Source: Camelus ferus (lineage: Eukaryota). Taken from it: DNA of 64,000 nucleotides. This document shows, piece by piece, positions 15,975 through 62,948 of the stretch; the stretch's first letter is position 1; each line of letters begins with the position of its first letter. The notes beneath the pieces were generated by a model, which was not told the origin of the DNA, ran no database searches, and was given only the letters and a program-made list of their open reading frames with translations. Position numbers and translations under genes: made by a program. The stretch spans positions 89,282,001 to 89,346,000 of the forward strand of contig NC_045696.1 of assembly GCF_009834535.1 (NCBI RefSeq). Direction: 5' to 3'.

Positions 15975-17300
15975 CGAATCTGGGAATTCCTTGCGCGGGG
16001 GCGGGGCTAAGGAGGGCCTCGTGAAAAATCCCCAGATACAGAAGGATCCAATCCCAATCAGGGTGACATGAGCTCTCCGTGTCCCCTCCAGAATGGCTCT
16101 GGCCCTTCTCTTTCACAGAAGCCTCGGCGTTAATGTCACCAAACCTAGTTCCCGCAGGGCGGTAAACAACCACCAAGCGGCCGCTGTGCGCACGTGTGCC
16201 AGTGTGCACGCTAGTGTACACGCCAGCGTGCACGCGCGGGGCCGCGGGCGAGCGTGCGTTTCCGTTAGGGAGTCCTGAACGCCTCCGGCAGCCGCTGCAG
16301 CAGCGCGCCCGGCACCCCCTCCCGCCCAGTCCCCTCCCCCGGTGGCTCTTGGTCGCCCTCTTCCCTCCCCCCCGGCAGCGTCGATCGCCTCCGGGTGCGC
16401 GGGGCAGCGCTCTGCACGCGAACCCCTCCTGCAGGCGCCCAGGCGCGAGCCAAGCGCCGATCTCCGGGCGCGTTTGGCGCCCCCTCCCAGCCACCGGGCG
16501 ACGATGAGCGGAGGCGCGGGGGTCGCGGAGAGCAGGTGAGCCCAGCCGCCGGGCTGGGGGCCGGGGGGTTCGGAAAGAGAAAGGGCAGAGTGGGGGTGGG
16601 GGTGGGCCAGCTGGACCCAGCATCGCCGCCTGGGGAAAGGGCTTTGCCCCCTTCAGCACCCTCCACCGAGGGCTCTGCTTTGCCCTTTCTTGGGTGGGGC
16701 GAGGGCTCCACTCCCGCCCTGGCATCCCCGCTCTGGCCGCACAAACAAAGCGCCCTTCCGCGGCGGCGCCTGCCCCGCGCGAGCACGGAGCCTGGGAGGA
16801 GACGCGCCCGCCATCCCTGACTCCGACCCCCTACCCGGGGCGGGGACGGGGCCCAGGCGGCTGCACTTGGGTTTGGTAGGTGGCACCGGGGTCGCGCGCA
16901 GGTGCTGGCGCGGGAGGCGGCGGCGCGCAGCTTGGAGGCCCCGCGCGCCCGGCCCGGAGGCGGGGCTACGGGCGGTGCTGCTGCCCCCTGCCGCCACCGC
17001 CTCCCTGCCGCTGCTCCCGGGCAGCGCGGCGGCGGCGGCTGCAGGTGGGCCCACATCCTCCAGGAAGCAGCTGCGGGCGGCGGGTGGGTGTGGAGGAGGG
17101 CAGGTCGCCCTGCGGCTCCCGCTTTGCTTTCCGCAAATGGACTGGCGCTGTTTCCGCCTCCTCGGTTGACTCCCTGCCCCCAAGGCCCGTCTTCTGCTGT
17201 CCTCGTCTGCCCCCAGCCCTCCAGCTTCAGCCCTCTGGAGCGTCTGCGTCCTCCGCACCTGGAGGATTTGGGAGGTTTCTCTGAACACCATGGGCTCTTT
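15975..17300. promoter_or_regulatory. CpG island, probable promoter of FIIND-DD gene
   Basis: Very high GC and CpG density; GC box (ggggcggggc ~15998-16008), two CCAAT (~16048-16058), GTAAACA (16162-16168), E-box CACGTG (16191-16196). Confidence 0.85.
16504..16535 (+). CDS. FIIND-DD gene, candidate coding exon 1 (MSGGAGVAES)
   Basis: ATG in CpG island with purine at -3 (ACGATGA); donor AG|GTGAGC; ends in phase 2, matching the 26105 exon. Confidence 0.55.
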
Positions 17301-23300: not shown

Positions 23301-26300
23301 TAAAGGTTTTCCATGAAGGTTTTCTGGGCTTTAGCAGTTCTGCTATCTAGGCAGATGTACACACATCTGGAAATAAAGATAAGCAGCTGTAGAGAGGGGA
23401 ATACGAAAGGGCCAGTTAAGAGAAAAATGCATTTTTGTCTCAACACAGAAGTGGATTTTTGGCAGACATGTTTTGTATAATAAGAATGGCTAACTCTGAA
23501 TACGTGTTCTCATAATTATTTTAAAATTGAAAGGTGGGACTGCCTTTTAATTTTAAAGAGGTACAAGTCTGGAGAAAAAAGATGCAGTGGTTGGCCAGTT
23601 CTTTTATGCATTTCATTGGGAACCATATTTTAGCCTTTCTTAGTGTCTTGAAACATTTCCTGATTTGGGGTTCACTACCACTCTCTGACCTCTTGAACTG
23701 AAGTTTAGGATTATGAAACAAGAGGATTCAGGTCTGAAAATGAGAATATATGTTTTTTCCTAGAATCATGGAGCTTGGGAAATACCAAATACTTGGGAAT
23801 GGTTTACCAGAAAAAATCTTCAGTCAAGAAGGTCTTCAAAATCTGGAGGCTCTGGACTTACTTGGGTGAAGAAGAGAAAGGAAAGAGCAAGCAGTTGGTC
23901 TCCTGCTTTTGTGCTCTTCTTCCTCAGTTTGCTTTCACTACCAGGTTTGGGATTTGGGGGTGAAGTGATGGAGAGTGAAGGGAGACACAGTACCAGGCAG
24001 CTATGGGGCTTTGAAGTCATAATGGCCTAGAGTCAAGTGTTCCTCTTCTGTTTGTTAGCTGTGTGATCTTGAGGAAGTTAATGAACCTCTCTGAGCCTCA
24101 GTTTGCATTTGTAAAATGGCCTTCATAGGCTTATTGGGTTGATTCAGTGAGAAGATACAGAAAGGTTTTAAATATCCGTAAGTGCAAATAACACCATTGT
24201 TGTTTTCTTCCCGCCTTTTCATTTATTCATCAAAGATTCTGATTCAGAGGGCCCAGAAAAACAGTTTTCAGAAGGCATCCTATGGAATTCTAATGTCCTC
24301 AGTCCATGCCTTGAGAAATGCTGTTCATAAAGGATGACTAGTGGTTTGGGCATCAAGGGAGAGGGCAGGGCTGTCACTTACATGCACACACAACACCAGG
24401 GGGTACCCCAACATCACAGTACATGTGCATGGAGTGCACATGGTTGGAATGCGTGACCTGCAAGTCCACAGGCAGTGACCCTTTTCGGGGGAGGGTTCAG
24501 AGAATAGTGTGTGTGTATGTGTCTATGTGTGTGTGTGATGCAGGGTGTCCTTGGGACACTGAAGAGCTTTCACTCTGGGGAAGCACACAGAGTGGGAAAC
24601 AAGGGAGCCAGGTGGAGGTCGTTGGGTGCCAAGCCAGGGAATTTAGGCTTCAGCCAGGAAGTGGTGAGAAGCCACAAAGGGGTCTCTGCAAAGACATGAC
24701 CAGCTCATGCAAATCAAGGTCACATGAGGGATGAACCGATAAACCAAGAGTAAGATGGTGATTAGGAGAATATAATCAGCCAGCCAGATGAGAGGCAGAG
24801 AGAGCTTGAACTGAAGCAGAAATAGTGGACTTGGAGGAGGGGACAGGTTTGAGAAATGTGTAGGAGAAGGCTTAGGAGGACACGATTGCTGGCTGGGAAA
24901 GAGGAAGCAGGACCTAGTGATGACTTGGAGGTTCTAGTCTGGTGACCTGGTGTTGTGATTCTCTGCAAAGGCAGGTCAGGAGGAGCAGGTTTGCATGGAA
25001 AGGGAGGGCAGTGATTAGTTAAGTGCTGATAGTATTTCATTTAAAGTGTTGACATGACCCCCTCTCCCCACCGTGCCCCCAGGCCTTGGGCACCTGGGAC
25101 TCAGGGAAGAGGCCTGGGAAGGGGGTAAAGATTTAGGACTTGAAGCCTTGACATGAAAAGCAAGCACTGGGGCATCCTGAGGAGGGTGCAGTGAAGTGGT
25201 TCTGGGACACATCCATTGCTGGGAGGCTGAGGCCAATGGGGCACGTGGAGAGGGGAGAGGCTATGGAGACAGGGGAGGGGGTGAGGGGGGAGCAGACCAG
25301 GTGAGAGGGACTGGAAGCCATGGGGGAGCCTGTCACCTGCTTCATCTAAAGAGATAGCGGCCACTAAGGACGGAGAGGGCCCGATGGGTCTGTCGGGCAG
25401 CAGTCCTGGATGGCTCTCGCTCAGTGGTTTTGGTAACGTGAGAGAGCAGAAGCCAGGTGGCTTAGGGTCTGGGAGAGGCTGGGGAGTGGGAAGCCGCGAC
25501 TGTAGGCCCTCCTGTGAGACCAGCATGAGGAGGGCGAAAGGAGGCTAGGTGGTCGGTCGTGAGGATGGAACGTTCCGTAGGCGAGGGGAGGACCGCCCAT
25601 TGAATTGAACGGGAGCTGTGGGAGCCCTTCCTTTCTCAGGCGCGCTGGATCTGGGGGAGGGGCCGCAGGGGCCGGAGGGGCCGGGTGAGAAGACCTGGGA
25701 GCCGGAGGAGGATGCACAGAGGGAGCCGGCTGGAGGGAGGGGCTGGAGGCCCGCGCCGAGTGGGCGACGACGATGGATTGCAGAAGGCGCGGCAGAGCCA
25801 GGCCGCGTGGCGGGGCACGGAGGTGCCACATCGTGAAACTGTGAAAGTGTGTGCTGGCGTTTCCGGGGGTGTGACGGGACAAGAAGGGGTTCAAGTGCAC
25901 GCTTGGTAAGTTCCATCTATCCGGGTGGTTTGGAATCAGGCGGCAGGTGGAGATGAGGGGCAGGCGGAGGATTGAGGAGGGAGAGCGTTGTTTAACGGGT
26001 AACATTTCTGGAGAAACATAGTATGATCATTTTGAAGACTTTCATAATTATTTTGTATAAAATTAGTATCCATTTATAAAACTGTTTTTCTGTTCTTGTT
26101 CTAGTGATGATCACAGTGCCTCTTCAGAAGAAAAAGGTATGGTACTCCAAGTCAGTGCTGAGTCATCCAAAACCTTAACCTGTACTGCGAGAAACATTTG
26201 TGTCTTTAGAAAATGATTTCTTTATTCATTTTATATGTTGGCTGCAATTGCTTTATTGCATTCAGGCATTCACCGACTTATAGAAATGAGTTGAAATAAT

Positions 26301-29300
26301 CAATAGGCTAGGATGATGGAATAATGGCAACTTTTCAGAATTTTCTCTAAGATTATCTTTTCAAGAGGTATTCAAAGTGAAATGTAAAGAATTGGGTGGG
26401 GCCTTTGTAGTTTTTTACAACTTAAGAATAGAAAATAAATGCTCTTACATCTCTCTCCTTTTAAACTCTAGTTCTAATGTTCTTTTTAACTTTATTTTAA
26501 ATTCAGTAAAGTAAGATTAGAGAAGCATTGTCACCTGAATTCAATCAACGTTCCATGCACAGTGACTAGGTCTTTTCTTTAATGCTTGAGTGTGGTAAGT
26601 CTGTAACCGTGTGTAGAGATGGATTTCTTGCTCTGGCTTGTTCTCTTTATCCTGCACTGCATGCACAGCTAGCCCAGTGTCTTACTGGGGGGTGGTTCTG
26701 AGGTCACTTTGGGCATTGACCTGTGTCACTTGGCTGCAGAGTGGCTTAGAAACTCCTCAGCTCGTCTCTGGGCCACTGTCTTACTTTTGCAAGTTTCATA
26801 TCCCTCCTGTGGTTCATTTTTCCAGAGCAGAATAATGACAACCTGCCTAAGAAAAGTATTATGATGAAAATTTAAAAGTTTTTGTAAAGTGTGTCTGGAA
26901 CGTGTGGTGTAAGGGGATGACGTGAATCTGTCACGAATGGGGTTGGATCTGGCGGGCTTTCTGCTTCACGATGCTGACCTAAACCTCCCCCATCCCTCTC
27001 TTTGCTTTTGCCTGTTTCTGTCTGGCTGAGATGCCTCTCCCTTCCCAACATTTAACTTCCAAGTGTGTTTCAGATCAACCAGATTCAAAGACTAGTGCTG
27101 AATCCCTCACATTCAGTGAGTGGTCTCAGCTTCTCTCTTGGACCAGCAAAATATCAGCCTCACTTCATTTTGTATTGTCTTGATTTCTTTCTCTATCTAA
27201 TGCATGGCTACTCCTTGTCCTCACAATCTCATTAACCCATAGACTCTTTGCTGGGGTGTGGATTTTCTCCGAATTTCTACAGAATGCCCACCACACAGTG
27301 GACACTAAGTCAATGTTCATTAAATTGAAGGGACAGTAGTCTCTGACTGTGCCCTGGGGGAATCAGTCAACCAGTAACTAAGCCTCTGTTGTTCACCAGC
27401 CCAGTGGGGGTTGATGGATATTCCAAACAAACAAGTGGAAGAGTGCTAGGTCCAGGTCTAGAGCAGTCTACTTGAGCAGAACATAAATAACAGACAAGGG
27501 GTATGGTAACTGAGGAGCAGTCCATCCCTGCACAGGAATGCCCTTGCTCTATTTAACACTGTTGGTAACCTCTGCGAGTTACCCCTTCTTCTCCTTTATC
27601 TCTAATGTCTCCATTTCCCCGGCACCCACACTGGCCTGGACTCTCACCACTTCATACCTGGATCTCTGCAGTGGCCTCTTAATGCCAGGCTCCCTGAAGT
27701 CTTGTGCATCCTGATCATCAGTAACCCCCAGTGTCCACCAACATCTTGGGGAACACCAAGGCCCACTCCAGCTTGAAGCGCTCATGTAATTCTGTGTCTC
27801 CATGTCATTGCCTGTAGGAGAACCATCCCCCCAGTCCAGCTCTTCCTAATTGCATTCAAGGTCCTCCCTGGTCTGATCCCACCTTATCTGGCCAACTTCA
27901 TGTCCTTACTGTCAACTCATTTGGGTCATTTCACTAAATTGTTGACAGTTGTTTTCCTGAATTGACTGTTGATTGGGGAGGACATGGATTCTTTGGTGTA
28001 GTAATACCACTGTCTGCCTTTCAGTTACAAAATCTAAAACCAGGTTTGTTTTTGTTTTTTTTTTCCCCTTTCTGGTGTCAAGTTACTTAATTGCCAGGGA
28101 TGTTTTTAGGGAGCTGCTGAGTTGATCAAACAAAGAAACAATGCCACTCCTTTGGTACAAAATAGAGACTGCCAGGGACCCAACGAAATGTAATGAAAAG
28201 TTTGTTGGCTTTTCTGTTTGCCTTCTATTGGAAAAGGCTTAAGGTTTCTTTGTCTAAATCTTGTCTCCCCTGAGACTATGGCGTTGTTTCCCATTGCTCA
28301 CGGGGCGTCAGTTTGACATGCAAGACTGCTTTGGGTCTAACGTGGTCGTTGAATGGCACAAAGGGCTTCTGTTATTTGGGACTTAGCTTTTACAAAAATG
28401 AGCATAATCTTCTATTTTATCCTTGTGTTTATCCTATTAAACTTTATTTCTTTCTCAAAATTTAGATTGCCCTAGCCCCAACCTAGATACTTCAGAGGAC
28501 TCTAAATCAGGTAAGGGATATGATTAATATTGATAAATGCCCAAATGAAATTTTTACAAAATAACCAATTCATAGCAAGGTAAATTACAATTTATTTATT
28601 TATTTAGTACTGTTTTACTTCAAACAATCTGAGTGAAAGGTAGGGACTTTCATCTTTCTATTTGAAAGGGCTGAATAAATTTTAAGCTTTCATGATTACC
28701 TAGCTTAGTGAAATCAGTGACTTTAAAAAGTTTGATGATAAACGCGGTACTTAGTGAAACTGAGAATTTATCTTTGGCTGGGGTAGTCCCAGGAGGCTTC
28801 TCTGAGGAGATGATGGCTGGATTGAACTCTGAAAGATGAACTGGGGTCACAGGGCAAAGGCCAGGAGAAGAGTCGTCTCAGTTCAGAAGACTCACAGGTG
28901 TAAAGGGCTGAGTGAGGGAGAGTGTAAGTGCTTGTTCGCAGAGACTGAAGGGCAGATGGCTGGGGTGCGGGAGTGAGGGGAAGGGTGACGGGGCCAGAGT
29001 GCGTCTGCAGGGACAGGCGGGGGCTAGATGATATAGGGTTAAAAAACAGATTCTCCAGAGAAGATGTACAAATGGCCAAAAAACACATGAAAGATGCTCC
29101 GTATATTTCAAGGAAATGCAAACCAAAACCACAGCAAGTTACTACTTCACACCCTCTAGGATGGCTGTAATGAAAAAGGGAGGTGACAACAAGTGCTGAC
29201 AAGGATGTGGAGAAGTTAGAGCCCTCATTCACTGCTGATGAGAACGTAGAATGGCACAGCCCCCTGGCGACACAGTTTGCCAGTCCTCAAGTGGCTACAC

Positions 29301-32300
29301 ATAGTTACCATTTGACCCAGCATTTCCTCTCCTCTTATATACCTCAAAGAAGTGGAAACATATCTCCACACAACCAGAGGGAAGGTGACTTGAAGGGGTT
29401 GCCCCAGCCAGGCTCCATCTCCCAGGGACCTGAGGCAGAGGGTGGGCCTCACCTGGGGCTGGTCCAGGCAGAATTACAGCCCTGCAGAGGTCCCAGACTG
29501 CCAGAGGGAACCGACAGGATAAAGAGGGGCCTTGGTAGGGGCTGCATGGTTCTTTAAAGCTGGGCAAAGCATTCATTCATTCACACTTTCATTCATTCAT
29601 TGAGCATCTGTGTTGGGACGGGTGGCGGAGGGTCAGGTGATGAGACAGTCCTCCCGGGCTCACAGACCAGCAGCTAAAAAAGCTGTTTGGCGGAGGGGTG
29701 AATGGGGCAGGATGGAACACAAAGGAGGCACAGCTAGCCTGACTCGGTGGGGCGGAGGGAGATTGTCAACAGGAGTGACTTTTGGGCTGGCTCTTACTGG
29801 ATACCTAGGAGCTCTGGAGGTGGAGTCTGGGGGAAGGATTTCCAGGCAATGGGATGGCATCTGTAAAGGCATGGAGGAAGGAGTGGGATGATTCTAGTCC
29901 AGGGGTTCTCAACCCTGGCTGTGCTTTTCCGTCATCTGGGGACCTTTAAGAATATACTGCTGTTCAGGTCCCACCCGAGATCAGTTAAATCAAAACTTCC
30001 AAGGAAGGGCCGAGTCCCAGGCAGGGGTGTGTTTAGGAAGCTCCCTAGGTGATATTGGTGTGCAGCCAAGGTTGAGAACACTGCTCTCTGCTTCCAGCCC
30101 TGCAGGACCAAGTCCATGTCTTATTGCCTTTATTTCCCAGCACCTGTTCCTACAGAAGCATGGCCTCGCCCTCCACCCAGGCACTTCTCATGCAGGAACC
30201 TGCCTCCTGCTCCCCCTCTCCCTCCACATCCAGACAGTCACCAGCTCCTGGGCCTGGAATTGCTGAAGTCACAAGAAGCATGTTTGCAAATGTAACAACA
30301 CGGTTAAGCGTGCAAATTCGGGCCAGCCTGCCCAAGTGGAAATCTTAGCCCCAGACTTCCTGGGCAGCGGGTAGTAGGGTGCTGGTGGTCTTGCGTAAGT
30401 AAATTCACTGACCTCAGCTTACCTCACTGGGAAGTCATGAGGGCTAGTGTGTAAATGTATGTAAAGCTCTTACATAAATATATGTGAAGTGTGTATATAT
30501 ATATGTAAAATGAGTAAATAAATGTAAATGAGTGAATACGTGTAAATGAGTAAGTATGTGTACAGCGCCTGGCACAGTGAACACTCAGAGAAAACTGCTA
30601 TTAGCTGCTATATTACTGTTCTCATTTTTATTCTCAAATCCTTTCATTCCTCCATGGAAGTATTGCACGTCCTTGGTTTTGGTCGTCAGCAGTTGTGTGT
30701 AGGGAGGGATGCTGTTAGGATAATACCAATAGCTTTCTGTGTGTTTACTCAGGGAACCCCGGGCCTGGGTGTGGTGAAGCTGGGGGAGCAGTGGCGGCGC
30801 GGGGTGGAGGGTGAACTTGGCCGGGTGGACTACCTGGGCGCGTCTCTGGTCGGCCAGGGCAGGTCCAGGGCGGCCCTGGAGGTGGAAGTCGACGTGCCCC
30901 CCCAGGGCTCTCAAGGTGTTCGTAGTTGGGGGTGCGGGGATGGAGAGGAGCGGAAGGCCCGTGGAGGGCACTTGGAGAGGCAGGAGGAGAACCAGGACAG
31001 ACACCAGGGGAGGGCACCGGCAGGAGGGGATGGTCCGTGTCTTTCCCTGGGGGAGTCATGGGACTCGGGGTTAGCGGGTCTTTGGGGCCATGAAAGAAAG
31101 GATTCCAAATTCTGTGGGAACAGAAGCCTGATTGCAGTGGGTGAAGGTGCTGATGTCGGGGTGTGGGAGGGCAGGGAGCATTCCTGGGGACCACTCTTTC
31201 CAGAAGCAGTTGAACAATATAGACTGTCCTCTGCTTTGGGAAATGGCAGTTACACTGCAGAATTCTGCCCTGTTGTATGATTGAATTTGTGCATGGAATC
31301 TCCTAGATGCACAAGTGCAGGGCAAGATGGGAGCAGCAGGGGGCAGGTCAGGCCTGGTGGGACTTGGGTGACACCCAAATAAAATGATTATTGCAGCCAG
31401 AGTGTGATTTGAGCTCTTATTTAAACAATTAAATTATGTTTTGTTCAGTTCCAAAGAAGGATAAGCCCTCTATGTAAACCAGACTAGATTTGGACTCAGT
31501 GAGAACGGATTATAAGAAGAAGTTAGTTGAGTTTGGATCTGTTTTATTATGTGTATAATTTAAGAAAATAGTTCCCACTTCCTTTTCATTGTGTGCTTCT
31601 CCCGGCATATGCTCTTTTTTAGGCGAGGACAGCTGTTCTGAGAGCAGCTCTGAAAGCGAATCAGGTGAGTTATCTATGTGTGTGTTTCTTTAATTACAGA
31701 ATCCTAGGTAAACATAGAAACCTTTATTTTTATTTTAAAGTAATGGCCACATCGGTTATATTGCTTGAGGACACGTTAATTGCCAGAGTCTTTTGTGTGG
31801 AATACTGAAAAAGTACGTACATGGTAAATAATTTCTGGTTGGCAAGCAAAGTGGCAAAACAGGATGAGCTGAAGAAGAAAGACAGGAAATGGTTGCTATT
31901 GGTGAGGAACAAACATTTTACCTGCTCTCCCATTAGCCTGTGTTTTCTCTTAGTTGTCACATGAATCTGATTTAGACCTTTTTTTTTTTTTTGTAGATAA
32001 TGAGGAGCCAAAACCAAAACAAACAAGTGAGTGTATCCTTCCTTCCTCTGTCATCTTTTGTGTTGTTGAAAGGAAGAAAAAAGGGTAGGCTTTGAGATTT
32101 TTAAGTTGCAAGTTGCTTGTTTCATGATCTTTTTTTTCATGGAAAATTGAGTTAAGCTTTAGGAAACAAATAAGCATTTTGAAAATTTGAGTTCAGTACA
32201 CTCGGGATAAAAGGGGCGTGTTCTTGATCTGCACTGATGCCAAGGTTCTGCATGAGCTGTTCTGCTCTGAGGATTCCCAGAGGAGAAGAGATTGAGAGAT

Positions 32301-35300
32301 GGCCGAAATCTGCAATGTCGCCACGGCCACAGCCTCGGCTTCCTTCCGTAGTGGTCGCCGCTCACAGTTCATCACAGGGTGAACAGTTTGCTGCTGAAAG
32401 TGTTTTACCATTTGTGGTTTAAAGTTTCTGCCTTGCTGTCCTGGCTGTTTGTGAACCACTTGAGTATGAAGCCACCACAGAGACATGGATCCTAAATATA
32501 AATTTGATTCGGGTCTAAAGTTTTGTGAAAAACTTAAAAAAAAGTGAGTGACTAAGCTTATATTTTAACTGAGTTTATTTTACTGTAGGATTCCACCCCT
32601 GCCCCCCACCCAGTTCTTAGAATATGATCTGCCCACGAACACAAATACTATAGCAAGGCAGTCAGAGGGTGCCTTTGTAATATTTTAAAATAAATGAAGT
32701 CTCTTCACTGAGAAGTCTTGTATTTAATTTAATTCTCTGCAGTTTCCCAGTGGGGAACCCGGGAAGGTAATTGTAAGCTCCTTGCAATCATGTTATGTAT
32801 TGATAAGAACCTATAATTATTTCTGTATCACACTCGTGGAGTAGATGTCACATTCTGATAGCCATAAGGGAAAAATGTACACCAGCCCTCCTCCCAGTCC
32901 ACTTTGTACATTAAGGATTAGTTCATCTTGCAAAATGTGATCAGGAGTCCAGCCTCTGTGGATTAGATTGGGATAGAAATTAAATCAGAAAGCTGTGTAT
33001 TGGGATCCAGTCTTTGCTGTTCCTGGTTAACAACTGAGTAAATGGCCATAGGGACACAGAGTCCAGAGGCAGGGCCCTCAGGGTCCTGGAAGCCAGGCCT
33101 GGGCTTCCAGGTCCTCGCCAGGGTAGCACCCAGGTGGAAGGCATTCTGAGTCAGTGAGGCTCAGGACAGGCTCAGCATTGGTGGGAGGCTGGGGTCAGTG
33201 TGGTGAGACAGGGCATGTGCAGGGCAGGGACTTGCTGGGCCTGGCCCTCAGCCGAATTAGGCACCTGGATGTTCTCTGGCAGCGACAGTGAGTAGGCTGA
33301 GCATGCTTGTCCTTGGAGCCCAGGGCATCCAAGGGGCCCTGCCTTCCCCCAGGTTTATTCTCTTTGTTAAAAGACATTTTACCCTCTGTGTTGTGGGTGA
33401 GATCAAAGAGGCACTCCCCATTCACTTCCATCCGCAGGTCTGATAGAAGGACCAGGCAGACCACCCTGGCTCGCTTGCTTCTCTGGGCTGGCTGGTGATG
33501 CAGGCCCACCCGTTGTGCTCATGATTGGATATGCCTTCTACTCATAGGCATGGGCTTGGGGTCACCTCTCTTGTATGGACTAAAGAGAAGCTGTGGTTTA
33601 TGTGTTGGAGAGAACTGTATCGGTCCTTCTGCTGGGAAGACCCGTAGACTCTATCTGCTGGGCGGTTAGGATTCTCTAACCTCTTTCCCTTTCTCTGTTC
33701 CCAAGGCAAAGGGCAAGACATAGAAACATGGGATGTGGATGCAGTGCAATGTGGATGACAGCCATTAAATAATCTAGAATTTTACAGTGCTTTTTAGGAC
33801 AGCGGCTGAGGAAATATGATTGAAGGATTTTGTGGTGTAGGACTTGGGTCAGTATTTCAGAACCTTCGGCTTTATAGTATTCTGAGTCCAGAATTCTGAA
33901 TACTTTTAGTCTCTACTTGCCATTTCATCTTAATGCTGTTTTTTTAAAAGCTGGTTCTCTCTTGCAACCCCTGGTCCCTGTATAATGCCCTAACAGCAGG
34001 CAGCTTGTGTAGCCGGGGCTGGAGCACCATCCTGGGGGAGAGCCTGCACCTTCTGGGTGGTATTGGTGGCCTAGGACCTTCTACATGTGTTGAAGATGCC
34101 TGTCTCAACAACAGGCTGACCCTCCCAAAGGCTGTTCAGATCTTTAACATATAAAACCAAACACTTAACACATTAGGTTTTACCCCATGTGAAGGGTTAT
34201 TGTTTACTTTAGAATTCCTGAATTTTTTAATGAGTCCCACCATCGCCCTAGCAAAATAATATTTCATAACAGTTCGCTAGTACTCACTGAGTGCTTGCTG
34301 AGTGCCAGGCACAATCCTTGCCTGTAATTTAATTTTCTATCTTTCTAGGGGTGGTATTATGCTAATCTCCATTTAATAGATGAGGAAAGTAATGGACAGA
34401 GAGATTTAGTACATAACTAGAGAGCCCAAGCTCATGAGCTAGTGGCCAAGGCAGGTAATAGGAAAATTCATTGCTGTTCTCGTTCATAATTCATTTTGTA
34501 GAATTCTAGTCATTCAGAAAATGAACACTGACTAGGCCCTGGGGTTATAGTCCTCATGAAGCTTACATTCTAATGGGGAGAGAAACAGGAATCAGAAAGA
34601 CTCAGCCAAATAGTGTGTGAGGTTGTGGGGAGTGCCCTGAAGGAAATGAAAGGGGAAGAGAATGTGTCAGGCAGGCCCTGCTGTCAGGAAATCCTCTCTG
34701 ATAAGGTGATCTTTGAGCAGAGACTGCAAGGATGTGAGGGAGTGAGCAACGTGAATATTTGTTGTGAGTATTTGTTTGAGGAGACAGTGCAAAGGCCCTG
34801 AGGCAGGAGCATGTGGAGAATGGCTCAGAGTGACTGGAGGGTTGTAAGTGCAGGGAGATGCAGTAATGAGGAGCCAGCGGAAGGAGTCTACATGTTAAGT
34901 CAGAGATAGTTCTGGTTTAAATGTGCCCAAAACCAGATGTTAATTACTCTCTTAAGTCCAAGCTAATCTCTAACTTGAAAGTCACCTGGGGGGCTGATGC
35001 TGATCAATCACTGTCTTGGGGATAATGACTCCAGCTTAGGTGTCCCAACTCCGGGCCGCCACGAAGGGCTCCTCCTTGGGGGCTGCAGCTGTCCAGATGG
35101 AACGCTGGCCTAGGTGGGGAGTAACCAGTGAAGAGGTTGTTTATGACCACCTGAGCCCTTCTTGTCTTCATAGATGGGGAGCTAGGAGAGTCTTCCACCG
35201 AGGAGGCGTCCACTCAGGGTAAGAGCGAGGCAGTGCCCTTGCCATCTTGTTTTCTCGGATCCATCCTGTTCTCCCTGTGCCTGTGGTGTGGGAGGAGGAT

Positions 35301-38300
35301 GTGAGGATCAGGCTGAAGGATGGTGAGACAGCAGTTGCTTCTACATAAAAAGATCAGCTAAAGACCTATGTGCCAAAATGAGCTGCGTGGAAACTTAAGC
35401 TTGTTTTCATGCCCCACCCAGCCCTACAACAGGACTCACAAATGTGATAACGGGTCATGTGTCTCTAAGTCCAGTGATGGAGATGTTTAAATAAAGTTCC
35501 TGTTGGCTGTGAAGCTGGAGGTGGGGGCTTAGGTGATTTACCCTGTGATTAACTTATGCCAATTCACGAATGATTGTATCTTTCACAGTTGAAGAATGGG
35601 AGGATAAAGGATTGCCCACAAATCATTTTAATTCAGGTATGAACTTAATATATTCCTTTAAATATTGTTGCTAAGGGGCTTGTACCTTTGAATTTTGTAA
35701 TCTGGTCATATCATATATATTTATTAAACATTTTTTGTCTGAAAATGCCAATCACATTCCTATAAGTAAAACTTTTTCTCTGTCATTTAGAATTTAATAA
35801 AATCCAATCTCACTGTGAACACTGTAAAGCTGAAAATGTAAGTCTCTTTTAATTATAAAGTATGATTCTTTAATTTGCTTGATTTAAGGAAACAACATTT
35901 ACTTATATATCATATATGTGCTTTTTCTCCAGAAACACAATGAACCAGTGACCCCCAGGCTCCTTTCCCGGGGACAGTTTTTGTAAGTCATTGTGGATAC
36001 AGAAGACGACATATTGTTCATCCTTTTAATTTTCTATATAAAAATAACCCTGAGTAGGGGAAGCACAAAACAGCATAACTTAACTTCACACATTTTATGT
36101 AATTCCTTGGATTGTTTTCTTTGATACTGATGTTGCTTCAAAATGTTACTGAGTTCTCTTTGTGCTTTTGAATGAAATTAAAAACAAATAATTGCAAGAA
36201 GTCCTCTCCTACCCAAGCAGCAGGACTGAACAGGTGCTCTTATCTGTCCAATGCAGACTGAAGGTGGACACGGAGGGCATTTACCAGTGCACGGAAACTG
36301 GTCTGATATTTGAAGTTAACAGAAAAGTTGACATCAAGTATTGTGTCTTGTCCTGGAGCAAATATGCGGACCTGGTTGTTAAGCCCTGGGTTGTCGGTGG
36401 ACCCTTGTTTGATGTTAAATGTGACCCTACCTGTCTTACCTCCATTCAGTTTCCACATTCCCTCTGCTTGGGTCGTAAGTACTAATTTGCTAACAGTTTA
36501 ATCTGTGCGTGTGTGTGAGAGAGAGAGAGAGAGAATGTGTGCAACCCATACAATGCCTGGAACACTGACGCACCTTCATGTCTTCACAGACTGCGACACC
36601 AACATGATGTTCAAAGTCTTGCATGTTAAAAGTACTGGGGCCTCGTTAGAATACACCGTGGACCACTCTGCAACCCATGTCAAATGGCGCGTGAGCTCTC
36701 TTTCTCCTGTGGGACCTGTTATTCAAAGCGAAGAAACGGTGTTCCACCACGGGGCCGTGATTCTGTACAAAGCCATTGACCATAATCCATCCTTGTCTTT
36801 TCGAGTGTACATAGCAACCAATAATGAGTCCTTCATCAAGGTAAAGCCAATGAAATGAATACTAAATGTTGAATACTTTGTTTTCAGACATGACACGACA
36901 TCTGGGTGGGTCCTGTCCCTGTTGCTTTGTGTCCCCCCTCAGCGGCGGGTCTGATTTGGTGCTCCCACAGAGGTCGTAAAGTCCGTGGCTGGTGTGTGTG
37001 TGCTGAGTCCTCAGATCCAGGGAGTATGATTGTTTGTACATGTAAACAGTGTTGTGAAGATAACAAATGGGGAAAGAGCTCTTCAGAGCTGGGGCTGGCC
37101 CAGGCAAGCAGGCCTGGCCTTGGAGGAGATTGCCTGGTGGACAGCCTAGGCCATCTGTTTTCTACAGCCTTTTTGCTGGGGACCAGGGACCAGGGGCCAG
37201 AGTGGTGACATCAGCAGGGAGCTCGTTACAGTGCCAAGTCTCAGCCCCACCCAGCCCTGCAGACTCAGAGGTGACTGGTGTGCACGTGGAGCTGGAGAAG
37301 CACCGGCCCTGGGATGCACTGGGCATCGAGGGTAGGGTGACCGAAGGTTTCTTCTGGGCCTAAAGCTCCACCAGTAAGATGGGCCTCTCAGGGTAACTCA
37401 CTGCAGAACAATTTTTTGGATAAAAAATTGACCCATTGTTCATGGGTTCAACATTCTGGTTTTTGAAGCAACAAATATTCATGAAGCACCTCATGTGTTT
37501 AAGGCAGCCTGGCCTGAGGGAAAGGGTTTAGATATTCACCATGGAACCAGTTTTCCAGAACACCGAATAAGGCTGTGACGTTCAGCCCATTTTCCAAACA
37601 GTATTGTTTAGAACAAAGGGAACCGAATCTCCTTTCATAGCCCGACTTAGAGGTCGGCTGAAATATAGCAGATAAAGCAGTGACACAAGATTATACTTTC
37701 AGATTCGAAATCAGGGTTTGACAGAAGTTAAATGAGCATTAGAGCTGTAATAAAGTGTGCTAATTTAAGAGTTGTAATTTGAGCTACAGAATCTCTATCA
37801 AACGATCTACTCCCAGTGGTCTTTGGTTGTAGTATTTTCACACTTTAAAAATGTTATACTGATTATAATTAGCCATATGTATTAAAGTATAAAAACTTTA
37901 TTAAGTAATGGGTTTTTAGTTTCTTCCTAAGAAGGTAAAACATGCTTCCTGTAATCTCATTAAGGTAATACTTTCAGTTGGGAAAGTAATCTTCAAAATG
38001 GTATGAGAATAATTTAAAGTATAATTAGCATAGATTTGGAATAAGTACTGTTGTTTAATGAACTTTATATTTTTTTAAGTAAATTCAGTTATTAAAAGGG
38101 GATTACCCCTCTTCCTAGGAAGCTGGGGTGGGGGCTGATTACATCAGCACATGTAGAGACGTTTGCCGCCAGAACAATGGGGAGCGTGGCACTGGTAAGG
38201 CAGGATGTCCTTCCTGGCTGATGTTTTATTTTTACACTTTTCTTCATGGGTTGATTTTTTTTCCCCCTAAGTAGAGAAAGATTTCCTTGAATTCTGCCTC

Positions 38301-41300
38301 AGGAAACCTAAATTTCATGTTCAGCTGTGACAGCTGCTTTACCAAGGGAGCCTGGGCCAACGCTTACTTTAACCTCTTGGGGGCATTTGAACAATACATG
38401 TAAAGTCAGCGCCCCCCGTAGGCCCACGTCAAAGGGGTAGTTGTGAAAATAAGGATGGAAACATATAAAGTGTGGGACAGAGACACACTGAGTAAGCTGG
38501 AACCCTGTAGAGTAAAGTAGCTGCCTTCTGTCCACAGGTGCACTGCTAGTGCTAACTGAACTCACATCCTTCAGGAGCAAATGGTCGGTGCCACACAGGG
38601 TAGAAGGGTTGCTTTTGGCCGTAGTGCTTTTGCAGAAAGATGTTTGGCGATCTGGGAGCCTGAAGTACAGATCAAAGGCGCCTCAAGCCTCTGTGGCCTT
38701 TTTTCCCCCTTGTGAGCACTGTGAAAGCTACTTCAGGGCTGTCACTTTGTAGTCAGAAGTGAAGATAATGCAGGCTGGCACGTGCCCTGCCTATAATCTG
38801 ACATTTCTTACTGTTGTTGCTGATGGATTTCAAAACCAAAACCTGTTTCCACCTTTAGGATATTTCCAAGTCTATAAAGCACTCCTCTAAGAAATTCATG
38901 AAAGTCGACAAGCCTCCTGTTTGCCTGAAGTTGTTGCAGAATGGGAAGAAGTACAGACTGATTAGTGAGCCGGAAGCCGAAATCACCCCAGAGGTAGAGC
39001 TCTTAAAACCACCTCAGAGGGGCAGCGGGGATGTGGATCTCTTAGCTGTGGTGTTTTGCAGATACTACAAATAATGTATTTTGTTCTCATTTTTTTATTT
39101 CCCACCTTCTAAGAAAGCAATTGTGTTTTTCTCATCTTGTAGCTTATTTCAAAGATCCTGTTGAATTTTAGGATGCTGCAGTCATTGGGAAAATAGACTC
39201 CCCAGTCTCTTTCCCTTTCAAAAGGTTTTCCATTTTCTTGAATTTTTAATTAAACTCTTCAAACAGTGTTAGCTTCAAAGGAATACAAACCTTAAGTTTA
39301 ATTTGAAGTCACACAGAGCATTAAAGGTTAATGGAAGGGAGTTGCTAACAAGGGATATTGGGCTTTTCTTACTGGAAGGCATTTGAAAAATAGAGGACAG
39401 ATTGTCATCAAATTTGTCTGTAAACACCATGACATTTGTAAAGTGACTTTGATTTCTCAGAAATGACTTGGTTATTTTGAAAACTTATTTTCACAGTGTG
39501 CTCTGAGCATATATGCCACAGCTTGTCGAGCCTGGACCTCTGTGTGCAAATTCCTTTGTATGCCTCCTTTTGTTTGTCTGTTTATTTTATAGTTTATGAA
39601 AAGCTGAAAACATGTTTTGATTCCATTAAGTTAAGATGGGAGGCAAGAGAGCTAATTGCAGTGGGGTCCATGTTGCATCATTTTATTGTATCATCAAGGC
39701 ACCCAGTGCCCTGTAGAAGCAATCACAAACCCTGATCAAGCTGTCGAGTTGATCAGACAGTCTTCTATTACCTTCCTTTCTGGTTTTAAAGGGTCTCTTC
39801 GCACCCTTTGAATTATTTAAGCCTTACAGCTACATGGCTGAGGAAACTGATGCAGGCGGGCAGTCTGCCCAGGCCACATACCCGGGCAGCGGCAAGTTCG
39901 GCCCAGAGCCCCAGCTGCCTTTGGCTTCTAAAGCCGCCGTCTTCCCACTGGGATCTGAGAGGTTAATTCTTGGCCCTCCCAAGCTGATCAAGCCCTGGCC
40001 GATGGTACAGCAAGACAATCACAAGAAGCAAACTGCAGCCTTGTCTGGGAAGTGGAATTAAATTAGAAGAGTTTGCTTAGAGCAGTGATTCTTGGCCTTT
40101 GCTGCAATGGAATCCCCTGGGGAGCTTTAAAAAAAAATTCTGTGGCCTGGGTCCCACCTCCAGGGACGCTGACTTAATTGGTCTGGGAAAGGCCTGGGCA
40201 TTGGGTTTGTTAAAGCTCCCAGGTGCCTGTAATGTGTTGCCAAGTTAAAGAACCACTAGGAGAGGGAATAATACCTATTGAATAGGTGAATCTGTCCAGG
40301 AAGAGACCAAGGTGGTCCCAGGAGTTCTTTTTCACAAAAGATGTTGATAGCTGGGGGACTTTAAATAATCTGTGTTTTACGACTCACTGTGTGCTCTCTC
40401 TCTCAACCAAATCTCTGGCCTATAAGATGGGAATAATCTCCCAGGTTTTCTGTAAAGATCATACAAAGTGATGGTTTGTGGGTACTCTGAAAATTTTTAA
40501 CACTCTGTGTAACTATAAGGTGTTCTTTTCAGTTTTATACCATTAATGATTTGTTTAACTGACATTGATCAGGAGTGCCTATTACAAGTCAGCCTGGGAT
40601 GAGAGCTAAGAGTTAAAAAAGAAGTAAGTCACAGGCTTTTTTTTTTCCCCGTGGGGGTACTGGGGATTAAACCCAGGACCTGGTGCGTGCTAAGCATATG
40701 CTCTACCACTGAGCTATCCCGCCGCCCCTAGTAAGTCACAGTCTTTTCCCTCAAAGATGCCAGTGTAGTGAGGGAAGTACTCCATTCATGCAAAGAAATA
40801 ATTTTAACGTAATGTGGTATTACTATAGAGATGGGCAGGAGGTACAGTGGGCTTTTCCAGGGAGGCTTTTCACATGGGGGAAGTTTGCCTGGGTTTGCAG
40901 ATGCCTGAGAGGTGACAGGAATGTGCGGCTGGGCTGGAGGCCCCCGGGAGGCTTTGGGGAATGGGAACGTGGAGGACTTTGGGAGGACTGGGGCCAGGGG
41001 AAGGAGTTGTCTCAGCATTATGGACCCTAGTGTGTGACCCCTGGAAGGTTGTGAGGATAATGCTAGTGACTTGGAGCAGAAAGAGAGGGGGGCAGGTTAA
41101 GACCACCGGTTTGGGGGGTGATGCCCAGTGCAGTTCAGTGTTATTTATTAAGAATGTACTTCTCAGCCAGGCTTGCTAGCCAGTCTGGAGAGGAGCAGAG
41201 GAGGTGGGAGGAGGAGGCAGTCCATGTAGAGGTTAAGAGCTCACACTCTGGAGTCAAAAGATGTGGATTCAAATTCTGGTTTCATCACTTCCTGCATGTG

Positions 41301-44300
41301 GACTTGGGCAAGTTCATTTGCTTCTCTGGGATTCTTTATCCATGAAATAGTCATAAAAGGATTTGTCCAATGAGGAACTATGGGTAAAACCCTCCACATA
41401 GTTCTGTGAATGTTGAGTCAGTCGCAGATTGGAGCATGCTCCAAGGAGAGGATGGTGAGGAGTTTAAAAGCACCTGGGAAAGGGTGGCTGATGGGTGAGC
41501 CCACGTTCCATCTGAAGAATCAGGAAAGGGCTGACAGATGGGGCCAAGGGACTAGAAAGGAAGCTTCAGTAAGGTAGAAATGCAGTTTGGAGTAAGAGTG
41601 GGAAGGTCTAGAAGGAAGAGAGTAAGAGGACAAGTGATTGAGTGGTGGGATTTCCAAGGTCACGATTTCAGTGGGGTGGTCCAGCAAGCACTAACCCTTT
41701 TAATGGTCATTATTCTTTATCTGACATTTTATGTTGTTCATTAGTGCAACTTTTAAATGTAAGAATGTCACTTTTTTTTTTTTAAAGGAAATTGAATTTG
41801 TGGATGGTTCACTTTTAAAATTGAAAAGTTATATTGAAGTGTATTTGGAGCAACCGGTGGAGTTTAAGTTACTTTTGGTGGAGATGGATTCCGAGGAAAT
41901 TGTATGGAAAGCAAAACTGAGAGAGTGTGAGTGTTTCATGTTTTGCATCTTGAGTTAAAACTCTGGTTTGGTGGGGTTGGGGCGGGGCGGGGCGGGGCGG
42001 GGTGGGGAGGTGGGCAGGCAGACGGGGCAGTCGTCCATCCCATCACTGGGACGTGACAAACTTCGATTAAAAGAAACGAAGGCCCCAGCCACTGGGACAA
42101 AAGTGCCGGCTCGGGTTCTCAGGCCCTCACCGTCCAAGTCCCCAGAGAGCGGGTGCCTAGAGCCCATATTTGCTCTCACGTCTTTCTCCTCCAGATGCGA
42201 CACCCAGTCAGATCGGTTTGGATTTCTGTCCTAGTCCAAGAAGGAAGCTTTTCTATGGGTGTGATTCTTATTGTCAGTATTAGACCCTTAAATTAGCCTT
42301 TCATCCAAACTACAGTTACTTAGCCGGGAAGAGTCCTAGGCGGGACTCTGCATTGGGGGTTGTATTATTTTTCTCTTGGTATTCATTAATTTGTCAAACA
42401 AGTGAACCTGAAAGATGTTACTTTTTAATCACAGCAAATGCCACAGTAATGAAGGTATTTAACATGTCGCCACCCGAACAACTGATGTTCTTCTAGACTG
42501 AGTCTCTCTCGGGGTAGTTTTAGAGACCACTTTATAAGGCCTCTTTGTAACCTTGTGTAATCACAGTCTGCATGCTAAGGTGGCCCTGGTCTGCATTATC
42601 TGGGGGCTCTATCCTACTGGTTAGCAGCACCTGCTCATCACTTTTCAGGCGCCTTCACTCCAGAGACCTATCAAAGGCCTCCTGAGACGTCGGCACGTCA
42701 GAACGGGGGCTGAATTTCACACACGGCAGGTGCTGTCCAGTCAGAATGAAGTATCCAGAAAGAATTCCCAAAGTACAGGGTTTTCCAAACTACAGAAGGC
42801 TAATATATATGTATGAGATTCTTTTACGTGGAGAAAAATAAACTTAAAATGTTTATTTTTACGGCTTCCTTGTCCACCTGGCACACAATGCCAGTGTTCT
42901 GATCGCAGTAGTTCTAGATTTGAAGAAATGCAGAAGAAATGACATTTCACCTGGCATGTGGGTAGGGCACGTATCATGACGGTGGTTTGCAGATGACTGA
43001 GGTTTGGGAAACACTTGTCTCACAAGACATGTTGGAAGGAGTCCTTGTGATTTATCTCAAGAGTCCAAGCCCAGTGCATTTGCGTACGTACCAAGTTAAA
43101 ACTCCACACTCATATTTGAACTTTAGGGAGATTGCCAAGACCCTAGGGCTTCCGTGTTTTCACAAATCGATTGCTTTAATTCAAATTTCATACCACTTTT
43201 TCCAGTTGATGCTTATGGTACTTTCACAGGTGACTGGATTCAGCAAGATCGGAATCGGAACATTTCGAAAAGCAGCACAAGTGGTGAGTGCTCATAACTG
43301 GACATTAAACTTCTGTTCTTTCCATCCACTAGAATTTTAATTTTGCTGTGCAAATACGGTAACATCAAGGATCTGTTAAGTGTTCCATAACTCTTAAATA
43401 GTCTAAACACCTCTGAATCCATTTTCAATTGGTTTCTATTTGTATGATGATTTTTTTAAATCCATTTTGAAGATGGGTGGATACTAACAACCATAAGGGA
43501 AAGCCAATTTGTTGCTGTTGTTTTTTAAAGGTAACAGGCGTCGAAAAATGAGTAGCAGCTTACCTGATGAAGTGGTCTATGATAAAAGAATGAAGCAGAT
43601 TGACACTTCAGGTTTGTAAAAATGTCATCAGTGGCTCTAAATCATTTTCCCTGGTCTCCCGCCTTGACATTCATCCAGCACATGTGCTTCTCGGGTCAGT
43701 CTTCCTGGAACACATCCCAGATGTGCCTCCCAGATACCTTCTCCCTGTGTCCCAGCTTCTCAGGCCTGGGTAAGGGTCCCCTTTGGTCTGCCCCAGCCTA
43801 CTTTTCCAGCTTGACTGCCCGCTCCTCCCCTTCACTCAGTGGGATGAGAACGGGAGGAGGGGAAGCTCCTGCAGCCCCTAGGGGCAGGACCACGGCCTGG
43901 CCATCTGTGCATTTCCCATAGCACTGAGCGTGCAGCCTTTTATGCAGAAGATAATGAATGTGCATGTGTGCAGTCACCGGTTTCACAGTTATTAGCTACA
44001 TTTAGGGGAGGGAGCCGCCAGCTCAATTATTGGAGACTAGAGTCAACCTAATTTTTTCCAATTAAATGGCAGAGACCAAAGCTCGATAGTTGTGAAAATA
44101 CAATAGAGATTTAGACACGTAACAATGGTGCTCTGAGGAGCCAGAAGATGGAGTATGTGCCTCAGAATTCAAGTCCAGAACTCACAAATTTGAGTTTTAA
44201 AAACCCAAACTCAAATTATATGAGACAAGGTCTCAAGGCTTTGGGAGCCTCATGTAACTCCCCAGATTAAATCTTTTCAACAAAATACCCTTTATTTTAC

Positions 44301-55856: not shown

Positions 55857-56012
55857 AAGGAACTAGGAAACGGGTATGGATATTGCTGCATTCTTTCCAA
55901 GGTGATTCTGTTCAAATTTTATCACTTTTCAGTTTTCCCACAACGTGTATTTTAACACTCAAAGTATTCCAATCACATTAGAAAAATACGAGAATTACTT
56001 TAATTCAGTCGT

Positions 56013-56018
56013 TTTATT
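56013..56018 (-). terminator. IL12A: IL12A polyA signal
   Basis: AATAAA on the minus strand about 510 nt after the stop; ATTAAA follows at ~55999-56004. Confidence 0.75.
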
Positions 56019-56054
56019 TTGAGAACAACATAAGGTATATCTCAAATCCACTTG

Positions 56055-56155
56055 ACAATAAATATTTTAATAAATATGACATAAATAAATATAAGTTAGT
56101 TCACATGCTTTTATGAACACAAAATTATATAAATAAATATTTTAAAATAAATTAT
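56055..56155 (-). promoter_or_regulatory. IL12A: AU-rich element cluster in IL12A 3' UTR
   Basis: Several ATTTA/TTATTTATT motifs on the minus strand (plus strand taaataaat). Confidence 0.7.
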
Positions 56156-56524
56156 GCTTAGAGTGGTTTTTTTCCTACAGACACTTGGGTACTGAAATAG
56201 CTTATAAATTCTTGTTCTTCTATTAAAGGAAAAAAAAGAAAAACATGCCCTTTGAGGACATTTCCCCTCCTTAGTAATTTGCTCATAAAAACTTACCCCT
56301 AGGAAATATGAAATATATTCGGTCAAAGGAATTACGCGGGTAGAACGATCACACCCTTCACATTTGGGATGCTGACCGATGTAGACAAGCATGAGAACTC
56401 CTGCACCAGCCTAAGTGGGACCAGGTCCAGCCACCCCCACCCCAGATCTTAACCCACACCCTTTAGCATTTCTGTGGTTCCGATTTTTATAAAAATGACT
56501 GAGGCTGGGAGAGACCTCCAGTTT

Positions 56525-56680
56525 CTAGGAAGAATTCAGATAGCTCATCATTCTGTCGATGGTCACTGCACGAATTCTGAAGGCATGAAGAAGTATGCAG
56601 AGCTTGATTTTGGTCTTATAAAAATCCGGCTCTTCCAGGGAGGGTTTCTGTGGCACAGTCTCACTGCTGACATTCAGGGC
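56525..56680 (-). CDS. IL12A: IL12A exon 7, coding part
   Basis: ALNVSSETVPQKPSLEEPDFYKTKIKLCILLHAFRIRAVTIDRMMSYLNSS then TAG. Confidence 0.98.
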   Translation of the reverse strand, partial: ALNVSSETVPQKPSLEEPDFYKTKIKLCILLHAFRIRAVTIDRMMSYLNSS

Positions 56681-59668: not shown

Positions 59669-59724
<56 letters not shown>

Positions 59725-62812: not shown

Positions 62813-62912
62813 GCTGAGCGGCGCTGCGGGGACACCGAGCTGGCAGTTGGACGAAGACGGATGGACGCCGCAGGTGAGGGCTGTGGTTGGGAGGCTGACC
62901 CAGAGGGTCACA

Positions 62913-62948
62913 TTTTTATAATTGCCTGAGGCGCGGCAGGACTTTCCC
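62913..62948 (-). promoter_or_regulatory. IL12A: IL12A proximal promoter: TATA box and NF-kB-type site
   Basis: Minus strand TATAAAAA (62913-62920) and GGGAAAGTCC (~62938-62948), inside a CpG island at ~62600-63320. Confidence 0.8.

What the first reader, a model, noticed from the sequence alone, without database searches (positions are those of the whole stretch)
26105..35837. Seven consecutive symmetric phase-1 micro-exons build an acidic disordered N-terminus (possible protease tripwire)
Seen: exons of 42, 45, 42, 30, 24, 45 and 48 nt, all multiples of 3 and phase 1-1, across ~8.5 kb, encoding an S/E/D-rich chain; any can be skipped without frameshift. Known: the disordered N-terminus of CARD8 is needed for activation and is cut by viral proteases (HIV-1 protease, picornaviral and coronaviral 3C/3CL). 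Inference: a modular bait region that can vary by splicing or exon gain/loss; KIQ|S in exon 10 has the Q|S pair cut by 3C/3CL-type proteases, which is speculative.
Basis: partly seen in the sequence, partly recalled or inferred. Interest (0 to 1): 0.7.

Follow-up and report, generated by a model that had tools for sequence, protein, structure and literature searches.

The report
Five-exon acidic arm, FIIND-death-domain gene
Five of the seven tiny exons are real and build a conserved, splice-adjustable acidic arm on an unstudied, ancient cousin of the immune sensors CARD8 and NLRP1 that ends in a death domain and seems lost in primates and rodents; the arm is likely a degradation handle rather than a virus-protease bait.

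Summary
All seven AG..GT, phase 1-1 segments exist, but only five (45, 42, 30, 45, 48 nt) look like real exons: with a first exon at 16504 they give camel RefSeq protein P0121 letter for letter. The 42-nt (27074) and 24-nt (32743) segments appear in no orthologue junction and resemble chance pseudo-exons. The gene is not CARD8: it is FIIND + Death domain, tail-to-tail with IL12A, found from coelacanth to camel, with no primate, rodent or afrotherian name among the hits. Modularity holds: annotated isoforms of 14 species differ by exactly one micro-exon. The tripwire does not: the arm is as conserved as the death domain, the Q|S site is absent from 18 of 29 eutherians, and a cut there would mimic inhibitory CARD8-p44. 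Camel splicing was not read directly. By-product: the songbird 'CARD8' of a 2024 paper is this CARD-less gene. The scan had noted this gene before, on this same DNA.

The parts
16504..16535 (+). First coding exon (ATG) in a CpG island; 32 coding nt, ends phase 2
   Evidence: Model equals P0121; orthologue N-termini hit here; CpG windows 16001-17250
25712..25907 (+). Alternative first exon of camelid RefSeq isoform X1 (approximate 3' end), in a second CpG-rich patch
   Evidence: 100% match to the P0003 N-terminus; the same N-terminus is in P0002 and P0005
26105..26136 (+). Coding exon 2, 32 nt, phase 2-1 (not symmetric)
26582..26594 (+). Coding part of the alternative first exon of camel RefSeq isoform X3, splicing to 28466
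   Evidence: P0122 start located here
27074..27115 (+).
   Evidence: 0 of 146 orthologue rows; weakest donor and acceptor scores, 15.9 equals expected by chance
28466..28510 (+). Micro-exon, 45 nt, phase 1-1; the most conserved one (p-distance 0.09); replaced in carnivores and pangolins
31623..31664 (+). Micro-exon, 42 nt, phase 1-1, Ser/Glu run; skipped in hedgehog, horse and Rousettus models
31997..32026 (+). Micro-exon, 30 nt, phase 1-1
32743..32766 (+).
   Evidence: absent from orthologue junctions; 0.45 equals expected by chance
35174..35218 (+). Micro-exon, 45 nt, phase 1-1; skipped in sperm whale, deer, buffalo, horse and bat models
35589..35636 (+). Micro-exon, 48 nt, phase 1-1; the most often skipped (whales, hedgehog, mole, pangolin)
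35791..35837 (+). Exon, 47 nt, phase 1-0: Q|S pair followed by a CxHC motif (C100 and H102 near-invariant)
35933..36840 (+). Three exons (35933-35982, 36257-36474, 36590-36840): ZU5 half of the FIIND with H208, E217 and the predicted self-cut L234|S235-P236
   Evidence: Pfam FIIND; alignment to NLRP1/CARD8; residue counts
38859..41926 (+). Two UPA exons (38859-38993, 41788-41926)
43230..43611 (+). Two further symmetric phase 1-1 linker exons (43230-43283; 43531-43611); the second carries a bipartite-NLS-like pattern
46549..46821 (+). Death-domain exon, 273 nt, phase 1-1; closest to the THOC1 death domain
48532..48551 (+). Last coding exon and stop

Best explanation
Five conserved frame-neutral micro-exons encode an acidic, predicted-disordered arm on a FIIND + death-domain protein, and the arm likely works as in CARD8: a sequence-independent degradation handle whose length splicing can adjust. 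Shown: the exon structure, the domain order, retention of the His/Glu/Ser triad at NLRP1 spacing, and single-exon isoform differences in annotations. Inferred steps: (1) the FIIND cuts itself at L234|S235; (2) the freed C-terminal piece starting Ser-Pro is held by DPP8/9; (3) stress-driven proteasomal chewing from the arm through ZU5 releases UPA-linker-DD; (4) this piece oligomerises, may enter the nucleus through the NLS-like linker, and recruits a death-domain adaptor (FADD, RIPK1 or RAIDD type) towards caspase-8 or caspase-2 rather than caspase-1. The run of phase-1 exons is the ordinary gene architecture of a disordered acidic region, not a special bait cassette.
For: 17-exon model = P0121. 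Pfam FIIND, UPA-FIIND and Death. Foldseek best hits are rat NLRP1 FIIND (E 4.5e-19) and DPP9-CARD8 (E 2.5e-11). H208/E217/S235 have the 9 and 27 spacing of NLRP1 H1186/E1195/S1213; His in 205 of 208 and Glu in 208 of 208 stored proteins with the motif. Pro follows Ser as in NLRP1, where P1214R weakens DPP9 binding. CARD8's arm is removed by the 20S proteasome regardless of sequence and can be swapped for an unrelated disordered region. The arm is acidic in all 52 aligned orthologues (15-31% D+E, lowest where long predicted N-terminal extensions dilute it) while its exon content varies, as expected if bulk disorder matters more than a motif. Runs of symmetric exons are generally enriched for disorder (PMC3632108). 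5 of 6 split codons begin with G.
Against: No experiment on this protein was found or done. P1 is Leu in 207 of 208, while the buried Phe is called a defining feature and F296H blocks CARD8 cleavage, so self-cleavage is unproven. The arm is more conserved than a pure length handle needs (first micro-exon p-distance 0.09), which hints at a binding motif or phosphorylation cluster. The death domain is closest to that of THOC1, an mRNA-export complex subunit (function recalled), not to a classic death adaptor. Camel isoforms with micro-exon skipping were not seen among the six-member camel cluster; the one camelid model lacking a micro-exon, P0003, is a lone GenBank-style model. Camel RNA was not read directly.
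Confidence: 0.5

Rival explanations
1. Non-cleaving or slowly cleaving ZU5-UPA-DD scaffold (UNC5/ankyrin/DTHD1-like behaviour) acting in the nucleus; the acidic Ser-rich arm is a phosphorylated regulatory or binding tail that could mask the basic linker.
For: Leu at P1. NLS-like pattern in 52 of 52 aligned orthologues (loose pattern, no shuffle control). 14 S/T-x-x-D/E sites in the camel arm. Net charge -21 in the arm vs +5 in the linker. THOC1-like DD. Very slow FIIND evolution (UPA p-distance 0.07), unlike arms-race sensors.
Against: Near-invariant catalytic His, Glu, Ser and the following Pro across amniotes are hard to explain without cleavage. The closest folds are the self-cleaving FIINDs, ahead of UNC5b and ankyrin.
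Confidence: 0.28
2. One reading: the micro-exons are a modular bait for viral proteases and the Q|S pair is a 3C/3CL-type tripwire.
For: The pair fits the published XX-hydrophobic-Q-[G/A/S] motif. P1' toggles between Ser and Pro among mammals. Exon turnover exists in Ferae. CARD8 precedent, including isoform-restricted protease sites. No second CARD8-type locus was found in this genome besides one other FIIND gene (lower bound).
Against: The site is in the constitutive 47-nt exon, not in a micro-exon; the micro-exons hold no such motif. Present in 11 of 29 eutherians and at this position in none of the 23 non-eutherians; chance 7% by shuffle, 18% by composition. The arm is no more divergent than the death domain. 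With the offset (our 121 = CARD8 178, extrapolated upstream without alignment) the new N-terminus equals about CARD8 155, beyond F150, which gives the inactive, inhibitory p44. No dN/dS could be computed, so site-level selection is not excluded.
Confidence: 0.1
3. All seven segments are used in camelids, the 42- and 24-nt ones as young, minor exons (compatible with any mechanism above).
For: Both are open, in phase, AG..GT; the 24-nt donor and acceptor score within the range of real exons; exonisation of intron 2 seems to have happened in Ferae.
Against: Absent from all camelid models retrieved and from all orthologue junctions; the 42-nt segment scores below every real exon.
Confidence: 0.08

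Closest known systems
CARD8 (disordered N-terminus + FIIND + CARD)
   Same: Disordered acidic arm directly before ZU5-UPA, no NACHT or LRR; triad spacing; splice-variable N-terminus (T47-T60 isoforms, PMC11202080 passages).
   Different: Death domain instead of CARD; Leu at P1 and Pro at P2'; NLS-like linker; strongly conserved arm and FIIND; locus beside IL12A; much lower similarity (45 bits to human CARD8).
NLRP1
   Same: Best sequence and fold match of the FIIND (70 bits rat, 64 human); C-terminal fragment would start Ser-Pro.
   Different: No PYD, NACHT, LRR or CARD.
PIDD1
   Same: ZU5-UPA-DD with a (here predicted) self-cut releasing UPA-DD that signals through death-domain adaptors (PIDD1 biology recalled; domain order also in PMC3210808).
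   Different: One ZU5 of FIIND type, no LRR; DD only weakly like PIDD1's (E 0.008).
THOC1 (p84N5) death domain
   Same: Closest death domain: 52.6 bits vs 32.9 for the next among 17 camel DDs, E 1.2e-7 in PDB sequences.
   Different: Sister grouping only 88/83, not starred; the rest of the protein is unrelated.
Disordered regions encoded by consecutive symmetric exons (PMC3632108)
   Same: Run of same-phase exons encoding disorder, with alternative skipping.
   Different: No sign of tandem duplication: among 45 exon pairs only 2 reached p < 0.05, neither between two of the five real micro-exons.

Membership tests
FIIND (ZU5-UPA) proteins | PF13553 + PF23679 over cut-off | tested here: met
   126 and 83 bits; fold match to NLRP1/CARD8 FIIND
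FIIND (ZU5-UPA) proteins | His/Glu/Ser triad at NLRP1 spacing | tested here: met
   H208, E217, S235
FIIND (ZU5-UPA) proteins | Phe at P1 of the self-cut site | tested here: not met
   Leu in 207 of 208
FIIND (ZU5-UPA) proteins | Actual autoproteolysis and DPP9 binding | not testable with these tools
   needs expression
CARD8 | C-terminal CARD | tested here: not met
   Death PF00531, no PF00619 in camel, echidna, eagle, turtle, dolphin, chicken, platypus
CARD8 | Disordered N-terminal arm before ZU5 | tested here: met
   pLDDT < 50 for 1-107 (prediction)
CARD8 | Orthology (>50% identity, best hit; criterion of PMC10249858) | tested here: not met
   CARD8 ranks below NLRP1 at 45 bits; the family is one starred clade (100; 28 of 83 rows) apart from 55 other FIINDs (named mammalian CARD8 was not a row in that tree)
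NLRP1 | NACHT and LRR | tested here: not met
   513-aa model has none
PIDD1 | LRR + two ZU5 (PF00791-type) + DD | tested here: not met
   only FIIND, UPA-FIIND and Death found
Viral-protease tripwire (CARD8/NLRP1 type) | Rapidly evolving, positively selected bait | tested here: inconclusive
   protein-level divergence not raised; dN/dS not possible without orthologous DNA
Viral-protease tripwire (CARD8/NLRP1 type) | Cut site leaves enough disordered arm to drive degradation | tested here: not met
   by offset to CARD8 the product is p44-like; inference by analogy
Viral-protease tripwire (CARD8/NLRP1 type) | Cleavage activates the C-terminal fragment | not testable with these tools
   needs a cell assay

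The most novel reading that the evidence does not exclude
This is a third, older and far more conserved FIIND sensor of vertebrates: a DPP9-guarded, degradation-triggered protein that signals by a THOC1-like death domain to caspase-8 or -2, possibly in the nucleus. Splicing tunes its trigger by arm length and its location by an NLS exon. It was lost separately in Euarchontoglires and Afrotheria, which is why human and mouse work never met it, and it explains why songbirds keep a 'CARD8' without caspase-1 or ASC.
Probability: 0.3. Interest if true: 0.8.

Novelty: new variant of a known kind. Interest (0 to 1): 0.52.

Why it matters
The micro-exon run alone is ordinary. The gene is not: livestock, bats, carnivores, whales, birds and reptiles carry a FIIND protein with a death domain that databases label CARD8 or NLRP1. 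In the supplement of PMC11258412, six 'CARD8' entries (zebra finch, platypus, dolphin, opossum, alligator, caecilian) and four 'NLRP1' entries (flying fox, chicken, tinamou, coelacanth) are this family. The puzzle of a songbird CARD8 kept without caspase-1 may therefore be a naming artefact pointing to a caspase-1-independent route. If the mechanism holds, DPP8/9 inhibitors and proteotoxic stress would have a cell-death output in these animals that humans and mice lack, testable with standard reagents.

Tried and rejected
A candidate first exon at 23764-23865 (my first model) was dropped: no orthologue matches it and the RefSeq protein starts at 16504. Direct reading of camelid RNA over the micro-exons gave no result (laid nothing). 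Tandem duplication of micro-exons: not seen. Complex prediction of the death domain with the camel death domain I read as FADD's: no answer, score 0.00, neither for nor against. Rfam hits in the window are six low-scoring tRNA-like matches that I read as SINEs (label recalled). Literature: ten searches; those aimed at a FIIND-DD gene found no paper describing it as its own gene. The library lacks most subscription journals, and bioRxiv supplements were not seen. ESM Atlas returned only the protein's own unnamed-type cluster and FIIND relatives.
Full report
Observation. Their status differs. A 17-exon model that starts at 16504 in a CpG island, uses five of them (28466, 31623, 31997, 35174, 35589) and ends at 48551 translates letter for letter to camel RefSeq protein P0121, 513 aa. 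The 42-nt segment at 27074 and the 24-nt segment at 32743 are in none of the camelid models retrieved. Among 393 stored proteins (278 with the N-terminal anchor, 146 eutherian-type, many of them isoforms or near copies), the 42-nt peptide passes in 0 of 146. The 24-nt peptide never exceeds 4 of 7 identities. 117 of 118 and 100 of 114 informative rows have one junction residue where these segments would lie; the rest show other inserts. A crude splice score built from this gene's own donors finds 23 equally good symmetric candidates in the same introns and 13-21 per equal length of control DNA; 15.9 chance equals are expected for the 42-nt and 0.45 for the 24-nt segment. Indirect transcript support comes from proteins recorded on short Logan/ENA contigs, which for a gene of 32 kb implies spliced cDNA (inference). 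P0166 (pig cluster, 173 contigs, longest 4.6 kb), P0179 (horse), P0265 and P0378 (bats) join all five exons and neither extra segment.

Modularity. All 32 skip combinations of the five exons are stop-free. Hand-picked annotated pairs from 14 non-camelid species differ by exactly one micro-exon: the 48-nt one in three baleen whales, hedgehog, mole and pangolin; the second 45-nt one (or its positional equivalent) in sperm whale, deer, buffalo, horse, two bats and echidna; the 42-nt one in hedgehog, horse and Rousettus. In pangolin both forms have a Logan record. Carnivores and pangolins lack the first 45-nt exon and carry another whose first ten codons match camel intron DNA at 26250-26279 (9 of 10 residues with dog), so exon turnover has occurred. 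The run of six phase-1 introns is unlikely against a recalled genome-wide rate (P about 0.006) but not within this gene, where 11 of 16 introns are phase 1 (P = 0.35). Five of the six split codons start with G. Runs of symmetric exons encoding disorder are a known general pattern (PMC3632108, abstract and passages), and CARD8's own arm varies by isoform (PMC11202080, passages).

The gene. Pfam gives FIIND, UPA-FIIND and Death, no CARD. AlphaFold2 (mean pLDDT 61) leaves 1-107 and 375-421 disordered; Foldseek ranks rat NLRP1 FIIND and DPP9-CARD8 first. The gene lies tail-to-tail with an IL12-alpha exon at 58180-58329 and about 100 kb from a DUF4719 gene (the name C3orf80 is recalled). Two searches, each listing the best 120 of 190 and 184 hits, and 30 cluster look-ups name cetartiodactyls, perissodactyls, carnivores, pangolins, bats, insectivores, xenarthrans, marsupials, monotremes, crocodilians, turtles, lizards and birds. 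No primate, rodent, lagomorph or afrotherian appears; because marsupials and birds rank inside those lists, intact copies in these groups should have too, but their genomes were not searched. Caecilian and coelacanth members are in a paper supplement. In a quick FIIND tree the family is one starred clade (100; 28 of 83 rows) on a long branch, a few unnamed members of which carry a CARD instead. The window's genome shows one other FIIND locus (a lower bound), which I read as NLRP1 from recalled sequence, untested.

Mechanism. H208, E217 and S235 keep the spacing of the NLRP1 triad (bioRxiv 2020.08.14.246132, passages), with His in 205 and Glu in 208 of 208 stored proteins bearing the motif; P1 is Leu in 207, whereas PMC3210808 (passages) treats the Phe as a structural anchor. 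The new terminus would be Ser-Pro, the DPP9-inserted end of NLRP1. In CARD8 the 20S proteasome removes the arm regardless of sequence, and an unrelated disordered region can stand in (PMC9213247, passages and section 4). I therefore infer a degradation handle. The death domain is closest to THOC1's (tree support 88/83 only), and the linker has a bipartite-NLS-like pattern in 52 of 52 aligned orthologues on its own symmetric exon, absent from deer and horse models (loose pattern, no control). The partner is unknown.

Tripwire idea. The Q|S pair fits the motif in PMC10249858 (passages and section 13) but sits in the constitutive 47-nt exon, two residues before a CxHC motif; a similar CxxC precedes the ZU5 in most other FIINDs printed. 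It is present in 11 of 29 eutherians, with Pro at P1' in 15 of 25, and a match arises in 7% of shuffles. The micro-exon region has p-distance 0.21 among eutherians, against 0.24 for the death domain, 0.12 for ZU5 and 0.07 for UPA, whereas full-length CARD8 could be aligned only among nine apes and Old World monkeys. Extrapolating the offset, a cut there gives a start near CARD8 residue 155; CARD8 starting at F150 cannot activate and inhibits, while K147 can. Against my reading: Ser/Pro toggling at P1', three of the six camel-alpaca differences past the first exon fall in the arm, and no dN/dS test was possible.

Literature. Five searches aimed at this gene found no description of it as its own gene. 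PMC11258412 (passages, section 9, supplement parts 1-2 and motif look-ups) files ten members under CARD8 or NLRP1. It notes 'only FIIND and DD' for flying fox and 'FIIND, DD' for cow, but 'FIIND and CARD' for platypus and dolphin, whose proteins scan as Death without CARD. Its zebra finch 'CARD8' is plainly this family by sequence; I scanned the Lonchura relative (Death just under cut-off, no CARD), not that sequence. Eagle, chicken and tinamou have separate entries under CARD8 in that table.

Verdict. Observation partly confirmed (five exons, not seven), interpretation partly supported (modular arm yes, protease bait unlikely). The exon run is ordinary; the host gene is a new variant of a known kind and carries the interest.

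Noticed in passing
window 43531-43611: Symmetric 81-nt exon with a bipartite-NLS-like pattern in 52 of 52 orthologues; missing from a deer and a horse model, so splicing may switch localisation.
   Followed up: partly
window 46549-46821; L029: The death domain is closest to THOC1's; the THOC1 exon and the two I read as FADD and RAIDD also start in phase 1, so phase does not point to a donor.
   Followed up: partly
PMC11258412 supplement: Zebra finch, platypus, dolphin, opossum, alligator and caecilian 'CARD8' and flying fox, chicken, tinamou and coelacanth 'NLRP1' are this FIIND-DD family. The same paper reports a PYD/DED-DD adaptor in birds, reptiles, caecilians, coelacanth and marsupials, a candidate partner outside eutherians.
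   Followed up: partly
window 26250-26279: Intron DNA matching the start of an exon used only in carnivores and pangolins (9 of 10 residues with dog).
   Followed up: partly
window 31839-31901: Intron stretch upstream of the 30-nt micro-exon that translates 90% identical to a cat gene model; possibly a conserved splicing element.
   Followed up: no
window 25712-25907 and 26582-26594: Two alternative first exons in camelid RefSeq models; the first lies in a second CpG-rich patch.
   Followed up: partly
window 56000-63300 (minus strand): IL12A, tail-to-tail with the gene; the matching human interval holds the non-coding IL12A-AS1/LINC01100 and autoimmune association signals (recalled, untested) and might keep a decayed copy.
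   Followed up: no
window 35813-35824: CxHC motif just before ZU5; a CxxC at this place is shared by most non-mammalian FIINDs, perhaps a metal or redox site.
   Followed up: no
P0409, P0421: Unnamed members of the family's clade carry a C-terminal CARD instead of the death domain, i.e. output-domain swaps.
   Followed up: no
G000 C1 and C16: Only two FIIND loci were found in this genome; no separate CARD8-like locus (lower bound).
   Followed up: partly
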